Part shown: piece after piece, positions 632 to 16,150 of the stretch
Numbering within the stretch: the first letter of the stretch is position 1
How the letters are laid out: every line of letters begins with the position of its first letter
Virus record (IMG/VR): IMGVR_UViG_3300023184_000070
Location: 22,776-86,775 of that record
Length of the DNA stretch: 64,000 nucleotides
Direction: 5' to 3' (one strand)
Source: a virus
Notes under the pieces: generated by a model
What the model was told of the DNA's origin: nothing
The model's database searches: none
Seen by the model: only the letters and a program-made list of their open reading frames with translations
Program-made: the position numbers and the translations under genes

Positions 632-1117
632 TTAAACTGGATTTGGATCTTGTGATGTAAACGACGTAATCCACCATGTGCCAGTTCCGGCATCAAATGT
701 GAAGGTCCAAACGGCATTTCCCCATTCACGACTGTAGTCAGTGGTGTCTTCAATAGTAGTTTCGCCGCCCGGTTGCATGTAGATGCTGTGATATGTTTGA
801 GCATTTACAGCGTCACGTTTGATAATGTATTGTTTTCCGTCTACCGCAGTTTGTGGTAGATATACAGTAGTGCCACGATAGGTTACTGGATTAACAATAA
901 CAAAGTGATCCGATGGCAGTAGAGTATATTCATAATCATCGTCATTTGCTGTAACTCTTGTAACTTGTACTACACCAGTTACGCCGCCTGCTGATACACC
1001 ATCGCTAACACGCAAAGCTGGTGTTGATGGATCATAAAACATGTCACCTGCGTGACCAACGTGAGTGTCGGCGTTGTCATTTACATGCTTGTAATGTATT
1101 TTTCTTGTGTTTGCCAT
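632..1117 (-). CDS. Putative virion/fibre-associated protein (161 aa)
   Basis: AAGGAG RBS upstream; N-terminal 'GDMFYDP..ALRVSDG..AGG' segment typical of phage fibre/decoration proteins. Confidence 0.6.
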   Translation of the reverse strand: MANTRKIHYKHVNDNADTHVGHAGDMFYDPSTPALRVSDGVSAGGVTGVVQVTRVTANDDDYEYTLLPSDHFVIVNPVTYRGTTVYLPQTAVDGKQYIIKRDAVNAQTYHSIYMQPGGETTIEDTTDYSREWGNAVWTFTFDAGTGTWWITSFTSQDPNPV

Positions 1118-1204
1118 TTTGTTTTCTCCTTGTGAAACACGGCGTTCTAGGCCGTACGCGGTTGGATTTCCGCATAAGACTCACACCATGTGAATCGTAC
1201 TAGA
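1118..1204 (-). ncRNA. Candidate structured cis-regulatory 5' leader RNA
   Basis: Three consecutive hairpins plus a possible pseudoknot between a TAAATA box and the RBS of the 632..1117 gene. Confidence 0.55.
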
Positions 1205-12153: not shown

Positions 12154-12387
12154 ATGGATATTCTTGCAAATGTAAAAAAATGGGCTAGCAATCTAGCAGA
12201 CGCAGGCGTGAGCGTAATTGCTCTAGCCATTGTACTGGAAATTTTATTTAAAGGGACTGTAATCCCATTTTTCCCAGTAGGTTCAGTTATCACTAACGTG
12301 ACCACAATCATCGGTGCTTTAGGTTCCCAAGGACTAGTAGGACTAGTTGCTATTTGGGTATTATACGGTATCTGGAAAAACAAGTAA
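12154..12387 (+). CDS. Small membrane protein with two hydrophobic segments (77 aa)
   Basis: Strong AAGGAG RBS, TAAATA at 12110-12115, hydrophobic helices and a basic C-terminus. Confidence 0.75.
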   Translation: MDILANVKKWASNLADAGVSVIALAIVLEILFKGTVIPFFPVGSVITNVTTIIGALGSQGLVGLVAIWVLYGIWKNK

Positions 12388-12514
12388 ACTTGTATCTAGC
12401 AAAAGAAAGACAACATGCTCATTTGTGTGTTTCTTTCTTTATCTCTATATAAGACTTCTTACAGAAGTCTGTTGTTTCGCTATCGCTCACAACATTATTC
12501 TCTATCTTTAATGG

Positions 12515-12845
12515 ATTAGTATCATCCAGATTAACTGGTCATAATTCACCGTATGCACGGTGAATTGAAAAGGCATCATCCGAGTAGCCCAGTCATCTAT
12601 TCTAATGAGATTGCCTTGCGGCGCGGAGGCGGTTGACCGGTACCCCCTACTCAAGCTTCACATATCAACGGAACCCTAGTGATCCGGAATAGACCCAAAT
12701 CCTATAGGCTGAGGTTGCATCTTTTTCGCATAGCCTCAATCATTTATTACCTTAAGTTAGTAATTTTCTTTGGCATCCAAGATCCGGACCGGGTATCTCA
12801 CCGTTCCTCAATGGAGCGTGGCCTAACCACGCACAGCGCCTATGA
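12515..12845 (-). ncRNA. Candidate large structured ncRNA of unrecognised family
   Basis: Intergenic stretch with many nested and crossing complementary segments and a GCAA tetraloop on the minus strand; starts right after the GIY-YIG stop codon. Confidence 0.6.
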
Positions 12846-12849
12846 TGTA

Positions 12850-13308
12850 TTAACTTGTTGGACTTTGTGTCTTTGGGAGATTGATTTTGTTTATAATGTG
12901 TGAGCCATGTACCCTGCAACTTATCTGTCCATTATAATAATCTTGTGACTCTAAGACCTTGCGGTCAAATTGTTCACGTGCTTCAATGTAGGAGCACAGG
13001 GCTTTTGATGAGCAGTAGCACAAGATCTCTCTCTGGAACTTGTCTGCCCCCAGCAATTCTACATCCCGCCGCAACTCATCGTTGCTGCCGTAGTATTCTT
13101 GCCAGTCACTGTCGATCTTGCTGCGTATCTTCTTTTTCTTCTTGATCCCGTTCTTTTGCTTGACCACACGATATGTGGTCTTGGCAAATTTGGCTAGCTT
13201 TTTGCCCACGTACTTTCTGTCTGTGGCGGTATTTGTGATAAGATACACAAAACCTACACAGTCTTCGGGTAATTGTTCAACGGGCATATTCTGATAGAAC
13301 CAAGTCAT
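12850..13308 (-). CDS. GIY-YIG family endonuclease (DenA/Seg-like single domain)
   Basis: 'GFVYLITN...RKYVGKK', 'YYGS', conserved 'E' and 'YYN' motifs. Confidence 0.85.
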   Translation of the reverse strand: MTWFYQNMPVEQLPEDCVGFVYLITNTATDRKYVGKKLAKFAKTTYRVVKQKNGIKKKKKIRSKIDSDWQEYYGSNDELRRDVELLGADKFQREILCYCSSKALCSYIEAREQFDRKVLESQDYYNGQISCRVHGSHIINKINLPKTQSPTS

Positions 13309-13367: not shown

Positions 13368-15137
13368 TTATACAGTTTCAACATCGGTATTGTAGGTGGT
13401 AAACCCATTTTCTTTGACCACAGTCAAGATGTTGTTGACCCGCCCGGCTAGTTCATCTTTGTGACTGACCAGCCAAATGCTCTTGTGAGCTTCTCTGCTC
13501 ATGCGTTTTAGGATAGCCAGTGCGCTTTCCACACCCGATGCATCCATACCCGAGTCTACTAGTTCATCAATGAACAAAAGATTGACAGGTTGATACAAAC
13601 TTTCCCAAACATCACGGAACGCCCACGACAGACTCAGTATCAGTCTATTGCGCTCGCCCCGGCTGAGGTTGTCAAAGTCTAACTCTCTGCCCAATTCAGT
13701 TATGCTCACTGTGAGATCGTTGTTGAACTTGACCACATGTGGCAAGCCAATACGGTCCAAGTACTGCCCTAGTCTTGCGTTCAAATAACTTAAATTTTGA
13801 TCAATAATGCGTTTGCGTATAAAACTGTCTTTGTTGGTCAACAGTTTCAATAAAAATTCTTGATGATCCCGGACATTGCCTAACTCGTTGATAGTGTCGT
13901 AAGTAACAGTCTCTAAGGCCTGTGTGCTCATTTCTTCTATCTGTTCTGCATATGGATCTGCTTCTGCGTGTTTGCTGGCAATTTGGCTTAATATATTAGC
14001 CATGCTGCTGCGATGTTCAAATGCATCGCTCTCGCGATCGTAGTAGACTCGAGGCTGCGCACCTGCCGCGCCTATTTCTGCTAGCGCACCAGTCAGTTCA
14101 ATCCATTGACCGTTGGTGGCCAATACCTGTAGTGCAGCTTCTTGTAATTCTTTTTGTTTCTTGGTCATGGCAGTCGCATGATCACCATCGTGCAGATCCT
14201 GCCCACATGCATGACATCGGTGATCCTCTAGTGCTGCAATCTCACGTTGCAGTCGTTCAACTACTTTGTTTTCGCGATCCTCGTCCAGCTCGGCACGTTT
14301 AACGGCCTTGGTTAGGTCAGAGATATCTTTCACCTGCTGATTGTATTCTGTTAGCGCCTTGTGTGCTGCCAGCTCAGCTTCGATATCTATTAGACTCAAC
14401 TCGTCGTAGCCCTTTTGCAAGTATGCTAAATCGCTGTCGTGCTTCTTCTGCCACAACACCTGTCTACGCTTAAAACTTTCAATCTGTTCTTGTATGCGAT
14501 GGTTGGCATCTGTCACTGCTTTGATGCGGAACTCTTCTTGCTGTATAGCATCTTTAGTGGCTTTGTTTAGTTCTTTAAGACGCTCTGCTTTTTCGCTTAG
14601 TACTGTAATGCCCAGCAATTGTTCAATAATAGTGCGCTGATCGTTGGCTTTCAGGCTGAGAAACGGCTCGGTATAGGTGTTTAATGCTACGATATGGCGG
14701 AACATATCCCAGCTCATGCCCAGCATGCGTTCTATGTCTGCTTGAGTTTCTCTGCTGTCGCCCTGACTCTCGTCGGTGATCTCACGCTCAACATTGCCTA
14801 CATAAAAGGCCATGGTGTTGGGCTTGCGACCACGCTCAATACGATAGTCAGTGCCGTCCTTCTCAAACTCAACAGTGACAATCATGCCCTTGCCGTTGGT
14901 TTTGTTGATCAGGTTGTCTTTGCGTATGTTGGTCAGTGCAGCACCATACAGGGCATAGCTGAGTGCATTGATGATAGTGGTCTTGCCGGTACCGTTCCTA
15001 CTGCCAGAATCATCCCCGCCTAGATCAATGTTTTCACCCAGGACCAGTGTGAGATCCTTGCGGTCAAAGTCCACAGCCTGCGTGACATTGCCCACGCTCA
15101 TGAAATTCTTAACAGTCAAATTCTTGATACGGATCAT
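13368..15137 (-). CDS. gp46: Recombination endonuclease ATPase subunit (gp46, Rad50/SbcC-like)
   Basis: Walker A 'NGTGKTT', zinc hook 'CHAC', signature 'LSRGE', Walker B 'LLFIDE', 'VSH'. Confidence 0.95.
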   Translation of the reverse strand: MIRIKNLTVKNFMSVGNVTQAVDFDRKDLTLVLGENIDLGGDDSGSRNGTGKTTIINALSYALYGAALTNIRKDNLINKTNGKGMIVTVEFEKDGTDYRIERGRKPNTMAFYVGNVEREITDESQGDSRETQADIERMLGMSWDMFRHIVALNTYTEPFLSLKANDQRTIIEQLLGITVLSEKAERLKELNKATKDAIQQEEFRIKAVTDANHRIQEQIESFKRRQVLWQKKHDSDLAYLQKGYDELSLIDIEAELAAHKALTEYNQQVKDISDLTKAVKRAELDEDRENKVVERLQREIAALEDHRCHACGQDLHDGDHATAMTKKQKELQEAALQVLATNGQWIELTGALAEIGAAGAQPRVYYDRESDAFEHRSSMANILSQIASKHAEADPYAEQIEEMSTQALETVTYDTINELGNVRDHQEFLLKLLTNKDSFIRKRIIDQNLSYLNARLGQYLDRIGLPHVVKFNNDLTVSITELGRELDFDNLSRGERNRLILSLSWAFRDVWESLYQPVNLLFIDELVDSGMDASGVESALAILKRMSREAHKSIWLVSHKDELAGRVNNILTVVKENGFTTYNTDVETV

Positions 15138-16150
15138 AGATTTCTATAGATGTCTAGCAGCAGATTTGAATTAAACTTGTCGCTGGTGATGTTGGTTATC
15201 TGGCTGGTAACAATCTGGTCAACACTTTCAAACTGTATGTTACCCAGCATAATGTTCTCGCCAAGATCAATTTCCTTTTGCGGAATCAAACTGATCTCTC
15301 GTAGACGATATGTGTCAATAAAAGTTTCTTTGATAAATGTAGCTTCTTCGTAGCTGATATCAATGTCGATATTGATTCTGCAATGCATACCTGGCAGCAG
15401 CATGGCTTCGGTGTGATTTAGCACGTCACTCAGCTTGAACACACGATACCGGGGTTGATCGGGCCAAGCATGATACACAGGGTCTTTACCCCATTCTAAA
15501 ATTGTAAGTCCACGATCGTCGTCACCAGCATCGGCATAGTTGTGCGGAAAGCAGTTGCCAATGTAGGTGATGTTCTTCTGTGTCTGTCGCTTGTGGAAGT
15601 GACCAGTAAACACATGATCAAAGTTGTTGAAGTGTTCTCTGCGCACCTCACCATGATCTGGCATGGCAACCATGGCGTTCATCAAGTATCCAGGCAGTTC
15701 AAAGTGCCCAAACATGTATTTGGCTGATAGCTTGGGGATTCGCTTGTGATCGTCCCCAACAAGCCAAGGAGCGATAACCACATCCCCACTAGCAAACCAA
15801 TCGTTAACAATTTGAATGTTCGGGAGGTGACGAGCCCAGTCAACCGATTGGATATCACGTTTATCGCGATAATACAGATCATGGTTGCCGGGAATAAAAT
15901 AAACACGATCAAAGTTATCATTTAAATGCTCTAGTGCCCTAAGACTATAGTTCAAGGTTACGATGTTGATGCTGGCTCTGTTGTTGTGCCAATCACCAAG
16001 AAACATGGCTGTTTCGCAACCTTCCGACTTGGCCTTGGCAGTGGCCCATTTGACAAAATTCAAACAGTCGTCGTTGTGTACTTGACTGTTGGACTTTAGA
16101 CCAAAGTGTATATCTGTAAAAATTGCGGCTTTTTTAAATAGATTAGTCAT
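15134..16150 (-). CDS. gp47: Recombination endonuclease nuclease subunit (gp47, Mre11/SbcD-like)
   Basis: Phosphoesterase motifs 'TDIHFG', 'LGD', 'GNHD', 'GHFH'. Confidence 0.95.
   Translation of the reverse strand: MTNLFKKAAIFTDIHFGLKSNSQVHNDDCLNFVKWATAKAKSEGCETAMFLGDWHNNRASINIVTLNYSLRALEHLNDNFDRVYFIPGNHDLYYRDKRDIQSVDWARHLPNIQIVNDWFASGDVVIAPWLVGDDHKRIPKLSAKYMFGHFELPGYLMNAMVAMPDHGEVRREHFNNFDHVFTGHFHKRQTQKNITYIGNCFPHNYADAGDDDRGLTILEWGKDPVYHAWPDQPRYRVFKLSDVLNHTEAMLLPGMHCRINIDIDISYEEATFIKETFIDTYRLREISLIPQKEIDLGENIMLGNIQFESVDQIVTSQITNITSDKFNSNLLLDIYRNL

What the first reader, a model, noticed from the sequence alone, without database searches (positions are those of the whole stretch)
12515..12845. 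Candidate large pseudoknotted ncRNA directly downstream of a stand-alone GIY-YIG nuclease
Seen: this is the only long non-coding gap in a densely packed window, and it is full of complementary segments. Long-range pairs: 12838-12843 with 12704-12709, and 12582-12587 with 12647-12652. Local hairpins: 12816-12832, 12710-12738, 12613-12622 (GCC-GCAA-GGC on the minus strand, a GNRA loop) and a perfect 10-bp stem at 12543-12566. Crossing pairs that would form pseudoknots: 12596-12602 with 12687-12693, and the two TCCGGA-containing copies at 12681-12688 and 12781-12788 (these two alternatives overlap). GGAUGAU occurs twice near the 3' end. The element starts a few nt after the nuclease stop on the same strand. 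I could not match it to tRNA, tmRNA, RNase P or group I/II intron cores. Inference: a phage-encoded structured RNA, either a partner or guide of the nuclease (by analogy to HEARO/omegaRNA next to IscB), a ribozyme, or an origin-priming transcript beside gp46/47.
Basis: partly seen in the sequence, partly recalled or inferred. Interest (0 to 1): 0.85.

Follow-up and report, generated by a model that had tools for sequence, protein, structure and literature searches.

The report
Twin-box structured RNA of lake phage
The gene-free stretch behind a small nuclease gene of this uncultured freshwater T4-like phage encodes a real, knotted non-coding RNA of about 390 bases that carries one short word twice; what reads that word is unknown, and the nuclease looks more like a neighbour than a partner.

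Summary
Window 12452-12840, minus strand, is a roughly 389-nt structured RNA gene. On 84 relatives, 98.0% of cells pair against 36-44% with partners slid, 43 of 79 pairs change on both sides, and 0 of 500 shuffles reach this. A pseudoknot covaries.

Rfam 15 has no match here, even at E<=10. In sister phages the same slot holds an RNA whose 5' third is Polynucleobacter-1 (RF01718, 85-105 bits). Its 3' part is homologous to the window's. The RNA is therefore modular: a swappable 5' domain plus an uncatalogued 3' module.

That module carries one 7-nt word twice (GGAUGAU at 12575-12581 and 12521-12527). The two copies are identical in 83 of 84 relatives although the word itself varies.

Of 99 RNA-seeded phage loci, 97 have a GIY-YIG or PD-(D/E)XK gene upstream. 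Against a partnership: other ORFs are often inserted between them, the nuclease type is swapped, cultured phages have the nuclease without the RNA, bacterial islands have the RNA without a nuclease, and the word does not covary with nuclease residues.

Function and reader remain unknown. This scan had already found the same "twin-box" RNA on other genomes.

The parts
12452..12840 (-). Whole structured RNA (about 389 nt), from helix P1 to the end of the terminator hairpin
   Evidence: nhmmer and blastn conservation in relatives. 79 pairs are 98.0% paired, against 36-44% with partners slid. Seven pairs are G.U in 68-84 of 84 sequences, which fixes the minus strand.
12654..12840 (-). Lineage-specific 5' domain. 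P1: 12838-12840/12772-12774. Hairpin 1: 12816-12832. P2: 12812-12815/12776-12779. P3: 12801-12807/12786-12792. P4: about 12759-12763/12747-12751. P5: 12711-12737. P6: 12677-12704. P7: 12654-12676.
   Evidence: Coordinates. Covariation per helix. This 5' domain type occurs in 19 of 80 GIY-seeded loci, and a Polynucleobacter-1 type in 42 (+4). The window has no RF01718 match.
12596..12602 (-). 3' strand of the pseudoknot. It pairs with the P6 loop at 12687-12693.
   Evidence: Paired in 83, 76, 76, 72, 57 and 77 of 84 for six of the seven pairs. One pair is U-A 37 / C-G 33. Four of the pairs are counted (92.5% paired, all four with changes on both sides).
12606..12653 (-). Near-invariant core three-way junction. 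P8: 12650-12653/12606-12609. P9, with GGUACCGGUCAACCGCC: 12625-12647. P10: 12613-12622.
   Evidence: Invariant columns in alignment A1. P8 closing pair U-A 43 / A-U 40; P9 G-C 62 / A-U 22; P10 shows four pair types. The core 19-mer found 119+ viral contigs.
12573..12584 (-). Twin box 1: CUC-GGAUGAU-GC (word at 12575-12581)
   Evidence: Its variable letters equal those of box 2 in 83 of 84 relatives.
12544..12565 (-). Hairpin H, between the two boxes
   Evidence: 9 pairs, 97.0% paired, 3 with changes on both sides.
12519..12530 (-). Twin box 2: UCU-GGAUGAU-AC (word at 12521-12527)
12471..12494 (-). P12 hairpin (GUUGU-GAGC-GAUA-GCGAA-ACAAC) with a conserved GA/GAA internal loop. It follows the A-rich linker at 12495-12518.
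   Evidence: All 5+2 pairs change on both sides. The same motif occurs in the bacterial copies.
12452..12470 (.). Terminator-like hairpin shared by the two converging transcription units
   Evidence: Called as a plus-strand terminator. The stem covaries in relatives, all 4 counted pairs on both sides. On the minus strand the U tail is weak, as the sequence shows.
12850..13308 (-). Upstream neighbour: 152-aa GIY-YIG nuclease, catalytic domain only
   Evidence: PF19835 at E=2.5e-32, covering residues 3-129. phrog_447 at E=8.5e-37. 595 relatives in IMG/VR.
13368..16150 (-). gp46-like (13368-15137) and gp47-like (15134-16150) recombination nuclease genes, the same transcription unit upstream
   Evidence: ORFs. 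AAA_23 and SMC_N hits for the 589-aa ORF. Conserved order gp47-gp46-(variable)-nuclease-RNA in the related loci. The names gp46 and gp47 come from my own knowledge of T4.
12154..12387 (+). Converging 77-aa ORF that ends 65 nt before the shared hairpin
   Evidence: No Pfam or PHROG family.

Best explanation
Window 12452-12840 (minus strand) is an RNA gene in its own right. It is a window-lineage variant of a modular RNA found in phages and bacterial islands. Its sister form begins with the Rfam motif Polynucleobacter-1.

Shown:
- The RNA folds into a multi-helix, pseudoknotted structure.
- It has a swappable 5' domain and a conserved 3' module. The 3' module consists of an invariant three-way-junction core, then box 1, hairpin H and box 2, then an A-rich linker, the P12 hairpin and a terminal hairpin.
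- The two boxes carry the same 7-nt word in the same local context (A-YYY-word-R). The word differs between lineages, but the two copies stay identical.

Inferred:
- The RNA is made as the last part of the gp47-gp46-nuclease transcript, ends at the hairpin at 12452-12470, and persists as a folded trans-acting RNA.
- It works by offering two identical single-stranded words to a two-site or two-copy reader that is specific to each lineage.
- I favour base pairing with a nucleic acid, so that the RNA bridges or sequesters two copies of a target. The reason is that the letters flanking the word differ between the boxes mostly by transitions, which a common complementary strand would tolerate through G.U pairs. 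I give this last step about 0.35, and a dimeric protein reader about 0.25.
- The upstream nuclease is a resident gene of the recombination operon, possibly a junction-resolving or host-DNA nuclease, and not the RNA's partner.
For: Structure:
- 79 pairs are 98.0% paired, against 36.2-44.1% with partners slid.
- 43 pairs change on both sides. 0 of 500 shuffles reach any of the five measures.
- RNAalifold found 37 of 73 pairs with compensatory changes.
- The pseudoknot pair is U-A 37 / C-G 33.

Strand: seven pairs are G.U in 68-84 of 84 sequences.

Modularity:
- RF01718 scores 85-105 bits at L019, L027, L036 and L025, directly after the GIY-YIG stop. The window-type profile matches their 3' parts.
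- Among 80 GIY-seeded loci, 19 have the window-type 5' domain, 42 (+4) the PN-1 type and 3 another type.

Twin rule:
- Alignment columns 312=377 and 316=381 are identical in 83 of 84 sequences each. No Watson-Crick partner column exists inside the RNA.
- The rule also holds in divergent phage copies. It holds in four bacterial copies with different words: AGCGAAA, GGCGAAA (twice) and AGCGAUG.
- Letters after the word are the same or a transition in 84 of 92 loci (+1) and 80 of 92 (+2).

Independence from the nuclease:
- Among 99 evaluable RNA-seeded loci, 20 have other ORFs between the GIY-YIG gene and the RNA, 7 have PDDEXK_15 instead, and 2 have neither.
- L148 has the window-type RNA behind a PDDEXK_15 gene.
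- 494 cultured-phage records hold the GIY-YIG homologue, yet blastn of the RNA finds nothing in that collection. The two records inspected have no RNA.
- RF01718 is above its cut-off in 3 of 151 genomes of one bacterial order. There the full twin-box RNA has no GIY-YIG or PDDEXK hit nearby.
- The maximum MI between a word letter and any nuclease residue column is 0.43-0.52 bit. Control RNA columns give 0.22-0.63 bit, and the two boxes give 0.91-1.0 bit with each other.

Co-transcription (weak): contigs from two RNA-library studies span the nuclease/RNA junction, at 12650-13238 and 12666-13002.
Against: - 97 of 99 phage loci keep a small nuclease gene within 2.5 kb upstream on the same strand. 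The slot is refilled by an unrelated nuclease fold rather than left empty. This could mean a functional link.
- No reader was found. There is no third copy or complement of the word at a fixed place in 128 loci.
- A wobble-complement of the box gave 3 hits against 5.6 expected in 92 loci. In three bacterial genomes it gave 0, 5 and 6 hits, against 3, 2 and 5 for the reversed pattern.
- The predicted unpaired probability of the boxes is 0.41-0.51, no higher than the RNA's mean of 0.40.
- Transcription, RNA ends and stability are not shown. The RNA-library contigs come from relatives and may derive from DNA.
- The transition argument rests on few independent lineages, and three of its positions never vary.
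Confidence: 0.6

Rival explanations
1. The RNA is the cofactor, guide or inhibitor of the small nuclease encoded just upstream (GIY-YIG, or PD-(D/E)XK in some phages). The twin words would act as two short guide segments that aim a dimeric nuclease at a target.
For: - 97 of 99 RNA-seeded phage loci have one of the two nuclease genes within 2.5 kb upstream on the same strand, and 76 have it directly adjacent.
- 63 of 69 GIY-seeded loci have the RNA downstream.
- The GIY-YIG protein is little more than a catalytic domain (residues 3-129 of 152), so it lacks an obvious DNA-binding part.
- The words vary between lineages, as a specificity element would.
Against: - Other ORFs lie between the nuclease and the RNA in 20 of 99 loci.
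- The same RNA type follows either nuclease fold.
- The homologous nuclease in cultured phages has no RNA.
- Bacterial copies have no nuclease.
- Word-to-nuclease covariation is not above controls.
- No target-like complement was found.
Confidence: 0.12
2. It is only a cis-acting 3' untranslated element of the gp47-gp46-nuclease mRNA. It would be a stabiliser or processing and termination module, with no trans function.
For: - It always lies at the 3' end of that transcription unit, before a shared hairpin.
- No conserved promoter-like block lies in front of it, and upstream ORFs end 0-30 nt before it.
- RNA-library contigs bridge the junction.
Against: - About 390 nt, 19 conserved helices, a pseudoknot and a 50-nt invariant core are far more than a 3' stabiliser needs.
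- The bacterial copies are not behind an operon. They lie divergent from a DUF6641 gene.
- The twin-word rule has no role in this model.
Confidence: 0.1
3. The nuclease genes are free-standing homing endonucleases that settle next to the conserved RNA gene and cut it in phages lacking them. The adjacency would reflect homing, and the fast-changing words would be cleavage-resistance alleles carried along by gene conversion.
For: - Two unrelated small nuclease families occupy the same slot.
- PHROG matches to homing-endonuclease families are weak: 2.8e-09 and 1.4e-05.
- GIY-YIG identity (about 70-75%) exceeds gp46 identity (about 55-67%) in most loci.
- A second GIY-YIG ORF is inserted in L177 and L178.
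Against: - The GIY-YIG gene is nearly universal (90 of 99 loci), not sporadic.
- It has no DNA-binding domain.
- Homologues are resident genes next to nrd genes in cultured phages.
- This model does not explain why the two words must be identical, nor the bacterial copies.
Confidence: 0.08
4. It is a ribozyme, or an origin-priming (R-loop) transcript beside the recombination genes.
For: The invariant core and the pseudoknots are ribozyme-like in complexity. The location lies next to gp46 and gp47.
Against: No match to any Rfam ribozyme or intron family. No split host gene. An R-loop primer needs no conserved fold. Neither idea predicts twin words. Neither was testable here.
Confidence: 0.06

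Closest known systems
Polynucleobacter-1 RNA motif (Rfam RF01718; Weinberg et al. 2010, PMC2864571). I saw only the table row, via a passage search.
   Same: In sister phages, RF01718 (85-105 bits) fills the first ~140 nt of the RNA in exactly this slot behind the same GIY-YIG gene. It is followed by a 3' module homologous to the window's. The bacterial RF01718 copies carry the same core, twin boxes, hairpin H, P12 hairpin and terminal hairpin. The paper lists the habitat as 'Burkholderiales, fresh water/estuary'. The function is unknown.
   Different: The window's own 5' domain does not match RF01718, even at E<=10. Rfam models only 141 nt. The roughly 250-nt twin-box module is not in Rfam 15.
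The family features are from my own knowledge.
   Same: A large structured RNA adjacent to a small nuclease gene in a mobile genome, with a variable short segment.
   Different: No Rfam match. The nuclease is GIY-YIG or PD-(D/E)XK, not RuvC/HNH. The link is not obligate. The variable segment occurs twice, inside the RNA and not at an end, and no target was found.
Large ornate bacterial and phage RNAs of unknown function (GOLLD, ROOL). Recalled; for 10.1101/2024.12.08.627333 I saw only the abstract start in a search listing.
   Same: Long, heavily structured, pseudoknotted RNAs frequent in phages and environmental DNA, with no known job.
   Different: No Rfam match to those families. This RNA is shorter (about 390 nt). 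A pair of identical covarying words is not a feature I know from those families.

Membership tests
Polynucleobacter-1 RNA (RF01718) | Match to the Rfam covariance model at or above 37 bits | tested here: not met
   No match at E<=10 in window 12300-12950. Sister loci L019, L027, L036 and L025 score 85-105 bits.
Polynucleobacter-1 RNA (RF01718), extended full-length form | Shared 3' module behind the motif: GGUACCGG-CAACCGCC core, twin boxes around hairpin H, P12 hairpin, terminal hairpin | tested here: met
   The window-type profile hits the 3' parts of PN-1-type loci, for example L019 at E=7.3e-29. The same elements can be read in the bacterial RF01718 loci.
HEARO / omega RNA | Rfam model match, and adjacency to an IscB/TnpB-type RuvC nuclease | tested here: not met
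   No Rfam match. The neighbour is PF19835 GIY-YIG.
Group I / group II introns | Intron core match and an interrupted host gene | tested here: not met
   No Rfam match. The gp46-like ORF is complete, and the next gene converges from the other strand.
tRNA, tmRNA, RNase P RNA | Detection by ARAGORN or Rfam | tested here: not met
   0 genes. No Rfam match.
Type III toxin-antitoxin RNA (ToxI-like; features recalled) | Tandem repeats of a whole RNA unit placed upstream of the toxin gene | tested here: not met
   The RNA lies downstream of the nuclease. Only two ~12-nt boxes repeat, 54 nt apart.
GIY-YIG nuclease superfamily (the neighbouring ORF) | GIY-YIG domain profile match with conserved motif residues | tested here: met
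   PF19835 at E=2.5e-32. Invariant G19 F20 V21 Y22, Y33 G35, R93, E109 and N126 in 28 homologues.
Rho-independent terminator (3' end of the RNA) | G+C-rich hairpin followed by a U run on the transcribed strand | tested here: inconclusive
   The hairpin at 12452-12470 is called for the plus strand only. On the minus strand the tail is UUAUAUAG. The stem covaries.

The most novel reading that the evidence does not exclude
The twin words are programmable recognition segments. The RNA would be the specificity subunit of a new kind of RNA-guided system of phages and bacterial islands. Two identical 7-9-nt guides would direct an effector, either the adjacent GIY-YIG or PD-(D/E)XK nuclease in phages or another protein in the islands, to a two-site nucleic-acid target. 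The rapid word changes would then reflect an arms race.
Probability: 0.07. Interest if true: 0.9.

Novelty: new variant of a known kind. Interest (0 to 1): 0.6.

Why it matters
Large, intricately folded RNAs with no known job are rare, and they have repeatedly led to new biochemistry. This one is common in uncultured giant T4-like phages of lakes: 119+ viral contigs from one 19-nt probe, and 595 relatives of the neighbouring gene. It also occurs in small-genome freshwater bacteria.

The work shows that a 2010 orphan motif is only the first third of a bigger, modular RNA. The constant part obeys an unusual evolutionary rule, in which two copies of a short word change together. That rule gives a direct experimental handle: mutate one copy, or both alike. 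The bacterial copies may make such genetics possible where no host-phage pair is cultured.

Tried and rejected
- Protein-coding reading. The only ORFs in the gap are 74 aa (plus strand) and 48 aa (minus strand), and neither has a Pfam family.
- Rolling-circle or template-jump reading with a concatemer ORF. The box-to-box period is 50-64 nt. The period mod 3 is 1, 0 and 2 in 54, 28 and 24 of 106 units, so no frame is kept.
- A third copy or a complement of the word near the RNA. No place is enriched in 128 loci: 105 same-strand and 66 reverse-complement chance-like hits, against about 67 expected per strand.
- A wobble-complement reader of form (complement of word)+GGGU. It gave 3 hits against 5.6 expected in 92 loci. 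In three bacterial genomes it gave 0, 5 and 6 hits, against 3, 2 and 5 for the reversed pattern.
- The word in the phage's own 86.8-kb record. It occurs 4 and 6 times per strand against a mean of 5.7 for 7-mers, and none has box-like flanks.
- Pairing between the variable stretches in front of the two boxes. Associations exist but are not Watson-Crick.
- Accessibility of the boxes in thermodynamic ensembles: 0.41-0.51 against a mean of 0.40, which is uninformative.
- Core pattern in 185,579 species genomes. The 42 hits are about the chance number by my estimate. Only L218, L224, L212 and L236 are real RNA copies. All four lie on MAG contigs, and I suspect but did not test that they are binned phage DNA.
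- A link from the GIY-YIG protein to a solved structure. The best hit, 3r3p_A, has E=0.17 with the single sequence and 0.0096 with the profile, which is not convincing.
- Sequencing runs. All RNA runs hold only 5-11% of the sampled words. When laid, they showed contigs of relatives. No contig covered 12100-12428 in the four runs, which is no evidence of anything. GC skew shows no origin-like turn at the site.
- Literature. The search 'GIY-YIG / noncoding RNA / phage / covariation' listed 96 papers, of which I saw the top 15; none of those concerned this RNA (listing only). 'Polynucleobacter-1' occurs in one held paper, Weinberg 2010.
Full report
What is there.

The window is part of an 86,775-base IMG/VR virus record with an estimated completeness of 25%. 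On the minus strand lie a gp47-like ORF (15134-16150), a gp46-like ORF (13368-15137) and a 152-aa ORF (12850-13308). The gene names come from my knowledge of T4. The 589-aa ORF hits AAA_23 and SMC_N. The 152-aa ORF is a GIY-YIG domain and little else: PF19835 at E=2.5e-32 covers residues 3-129, and phrog_447 matches at E=8.5e-37.

A 77-aa plus-strand ORF (12154-12387) converges on these genes. Between the two lie 462 bases with no tRNA or tmRNA and no Rfam 15 match, even at E<=10. The only Rfam match in the whole window is freshwater-2 at 1115-1195. Both strands of the gap fold better than all 100 shuffles, with z of -3.97 and -4.02, so folding energy alone does not pick a strand.

Conservation and structure.

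The GIY-YIG protein has 595 relatives in IMG/VR, of which 80 loci were kept. The gap sequence is conserved downstream of them.

From the full-length matches I kept 89 non-redundant sequences and aligned 84 of them as A1. The five left out had long insertions or very divergent 5' parts: L079, L125, L177, L118 and L055.

- RNAalifold predicts 73 pairs, 37 of them with compensatory changes.
- I removed one spurious pair. I then added a 3-bp closing helix and a 4-bp pseudoknot found by mutual information.
- The resulting 79 pairs are 98.0% paired, against 36.2-44.1% when partners are slid by 1-3 columns. Of these, 43 pairs change on both sides, and 0 of 500 shuffles reach any measure.
- The pseudoknot extends to seven pairs, one of them U-A in 37 and C-G in 33 sequences.
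- Seven pairs are G.U in 68-84 of 84 sequences. On the other strand these would be A.C mismatches. The RNA is therefore on the minus strand, the strand of the nuclease gene.
- In window coordinates it runs from about 12840 to the hairpin at 12452-12470.

- All four local hairpins, the crossing pair and the repeated GGAUGAU are confirmed.
- The long-range pair 12838-12843/12704-12709 is not conserved. It is replaced by 12838-12840/12772-12774.
- The pair 12582-12587/12647-12652 consists of four invariant pairs that compete with a covarying helix.
- The two UCCGGAUC copies are identical in only 2 of 84 relatives.
- The bounds given miss the 3' 65 nt.

The twin boxes.

Two stretches, CUC-GGAUGAU-GC (12573-12584) and UCU-GGAUGAU-AC (12519-12530), flank hairpin H. 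Two letters of the word vary between G and A across relatives. At each variable position the two copies are identical in 83 of 84 sequences, with mutual information of 0.91 and 1.0 bit. No column inside the RNA is complementary to them.

I saw this parallel change before opening the scan's earlier notes (note). The name 'twin-box' is theirs.

A pattern search that requires two identical 7-mers around an H-like hairpin gives the word spectrum in 128 distinct loci. GGAUAAU occurs 36 times, AGAUGAU 26, AGAUAAU 22, GGAUGAU 19, GGAUGAA 9, AGAUGAA 9, and five rarer words 1-2 times each. This search shows the spectrum. It is not a test of identity.

Divergent phage copies and four bacterial copies keep the rule with other words: ACGAAAU, AGCGAAA, GGCGAAA and AGCGAUG.

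Outside the word, the two boxes differ mostly by transitions. The prefix is CUC against UCU, which never varies. The first letter after the word shows 55 transitions, 29 identities and 8 transversions. The second shows 54 identities, 26 transitions and 12 transversions, in 92 loci. A single complementary strand could pair with both boxes through G.U pairs. This is my reason to favour a nucleic-acid reader, but the lineages are not independent.

Relation to what is known.

Earlier notes of this scan named Polynucleobacter-1 as the closest family. My first Rfam runs did not reproduce this: there were no matches in the window or in six loci. A run on nine other loci did. RF01718 scores 85-105 bits (cut-off 37) at L019, L027, L036 and L025, starting right after the GIY-YIG stop.

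A profile built from those four segments finds the motif in 47 loci. Among the 80 GIY-seeded loci:
- 19 have the window-type 5' domain;
- 42 have a PN-1-type 5' domain followed about 100 nt later by the shared 3' module;
- 4 have PN-1 only, of which three hold under 300 nt downstream;
- 3 have only the 3' module;
- 3 are partial;
- 9 have nothing, of which 4 hold under 200 nt downstream.

So Rfam's 141-nt family is the first third of a longer RNA. The window carries a variant in which that third is replaced by a different domain of about 190 nt.

These genomes belong to the order that contains a Janthinobacterium record, and those with hits are 1.7-1.9 Mb in size. Read by eye, these loci have the same core, twin boxes, hairpin H, P12 hairpin and terminal hairpin, although my phage-built profile does not reach them.

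The only held paper that names the motif lists it in a table as a candidate cis-regulatory RNA of 'Burkholderiales, fresh water/estuary' (passage only).

Is the nuclease a partner?

For a partnership:
- Of the 119 RNA-seeded loci, 99 could be judged. I dropped 16 with under 600 nt held upstream, 3 with duplicate RNA sequence and 1 without a profile hit.
- 70 have the GIY-YIG gene ending within 80 nt of the RNA.
- 20 have it 150-2500 nt upstream.
- 6 have instead a 170-aa PDDEXK_15 protein (PF24608, 1.1e-24; phrog_244 'RusA-like Holliday junction resolvase') ending within 150 nt, and 1 has it 1.1 kb upstream.
- 2 have neither.
- 63 of 69 GIY-seeded loci with room downstream have the RNA. Three more have divergent RNA-like gaps, and three have a 381-400-aa ORF instead.

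Against a partnership:
- The inserted ORFs are of several unrelated kinds, and each ends 0-30 nt before the RNA.
- PDDEXK_15 occurs in none of the GIY-YIG loci nor in the window. Yet L148 has the window-type RNA behind it.
- GIY-YIG genes 70-80% identical to the window's precede all three 5'-domain types.
- 494 cultured-phage records hold a homologue, all under 60% identical, mostly cyanophages where it is labelled 'NAD synthetase'. In the two records inspected it follows ribonucleotide reductase genes and no RNA is detectable. The RNA has no blastn match in that collection.
- The bacterial copies have no GIY-YIG or PDDEXK hit in the 1-3 kb held. They lie divergent from a DUF6641 gene, near a DUF6876 gene and an integrase-like fragment.
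- The best mutual information between a word letter and any nuclease residue column is 0.43-0.52 bit. This lies within the range of control RNA columns, 0.22-0.63 bit.

My reading is that the slot after gp46 holds a small recombination- or DNA-degrading nuclease, that two folds have filled it, and that the RNA is simply the last gene of that unit. That T4's small GIY-YIG endonuclease II lies after nrdB is from memory, and I could not link the proteins by sequence.

Expression.

Four RNA-library runs from four studies hold contigs of relatives. Two contigs span the nuclease/RNA junction: 593 nt over 12650-13238 and 342 nt over 12666-13002. This fits co-transcription. However, contigs cannot show strand or ends, and DNA may be present in such libraries.

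How it most likely works.

Shown: a conserved, knotted, modular RNA with two identical, lineage-specific words.

Inferred: it is transcribed with the upstream operon, ends at the shared hairpin, and acts in trans by presenting the two words to a bivalent or two-copy reader. I put the existence of an independent RNA gene at about 0.95, its independence from the nuclease at about 0.75, and reading by base pairing at about 0.35.

The searches for such a reader all failed. I looked near the RNA, in the 86.8-kb record and in three bacterial genomes.

Verdict.

The feature is real and the observation largely correct. The nuclease-guide reading is not supported but not excluded. The RNA is a new variant of a family whose 5' third has been catalogued without a function since 2010. 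The same RNA has already been reported many times by this scan on other genomes.

Noticed in passing
window 1115-1195 (minus strand): The only Rfam match at gathering score in the window: freshwater-2 RNA (RF02980), 71.4 bits, full length.
   Followed up: no
L087, L088, L096, L121, L141, L147, L163, L167, L177, L178, L185, L194, L196 (between the nuclease gene and the RNA): The junction in front of the RNA is an insertion hot spot. ORFs of 200-340 aa from several unrelated kinds end 0-30 nt before the RNA in most of these loci. Among them is a second, 202-207-aa GIY-YIG-like ORF in L177 and L178.
   Followed up: partly
L130 / L192, upstream of the RNA: A long, 357-aa GIY-YIG-like ORF is followed by what looks like only the C-terminal part (residues 36-170) of the PDDEXK_15 protein. 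This may be a replacement caught in progress.
   Followed up: no
INPHARED records such as KM359505.1 152334-152768 and MW015081.1: The homologous small GIY-YIG protein of cyanophages is annotated 'NAD synthetase', as is phrog_447. Given the PF19835 match, this looks like a propagated misannotation.
   Followed up: partly
L218, L224 (Haliscomenobacter MAG contigs), L236 (Bifidobacterium MAG contig), L212: Contigs filed under bacterial MAGs carry the phage-type RNA (E down to 1e-126). They may be phage contigs binned with bacteria, which I did not test.
   Followed up: no
L245 1796-2263 and L248 1806-2240 (plus strand): In the bacterial islands, the RNA is transcribed divergently from a conserved DUF6641 gene. 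A DUF6876 gene and an integrase-like fragment lie nearby.
   Followed up: partly
L112 (IMG/VR contig 3300016476_000328): A copy of the RNA with the word ACGAAAU lies 40 nt behind a 180-aa ORF, among ORFs that look bacterial to me (no family search was run on them), and with no nuclease.
   Followed up: no
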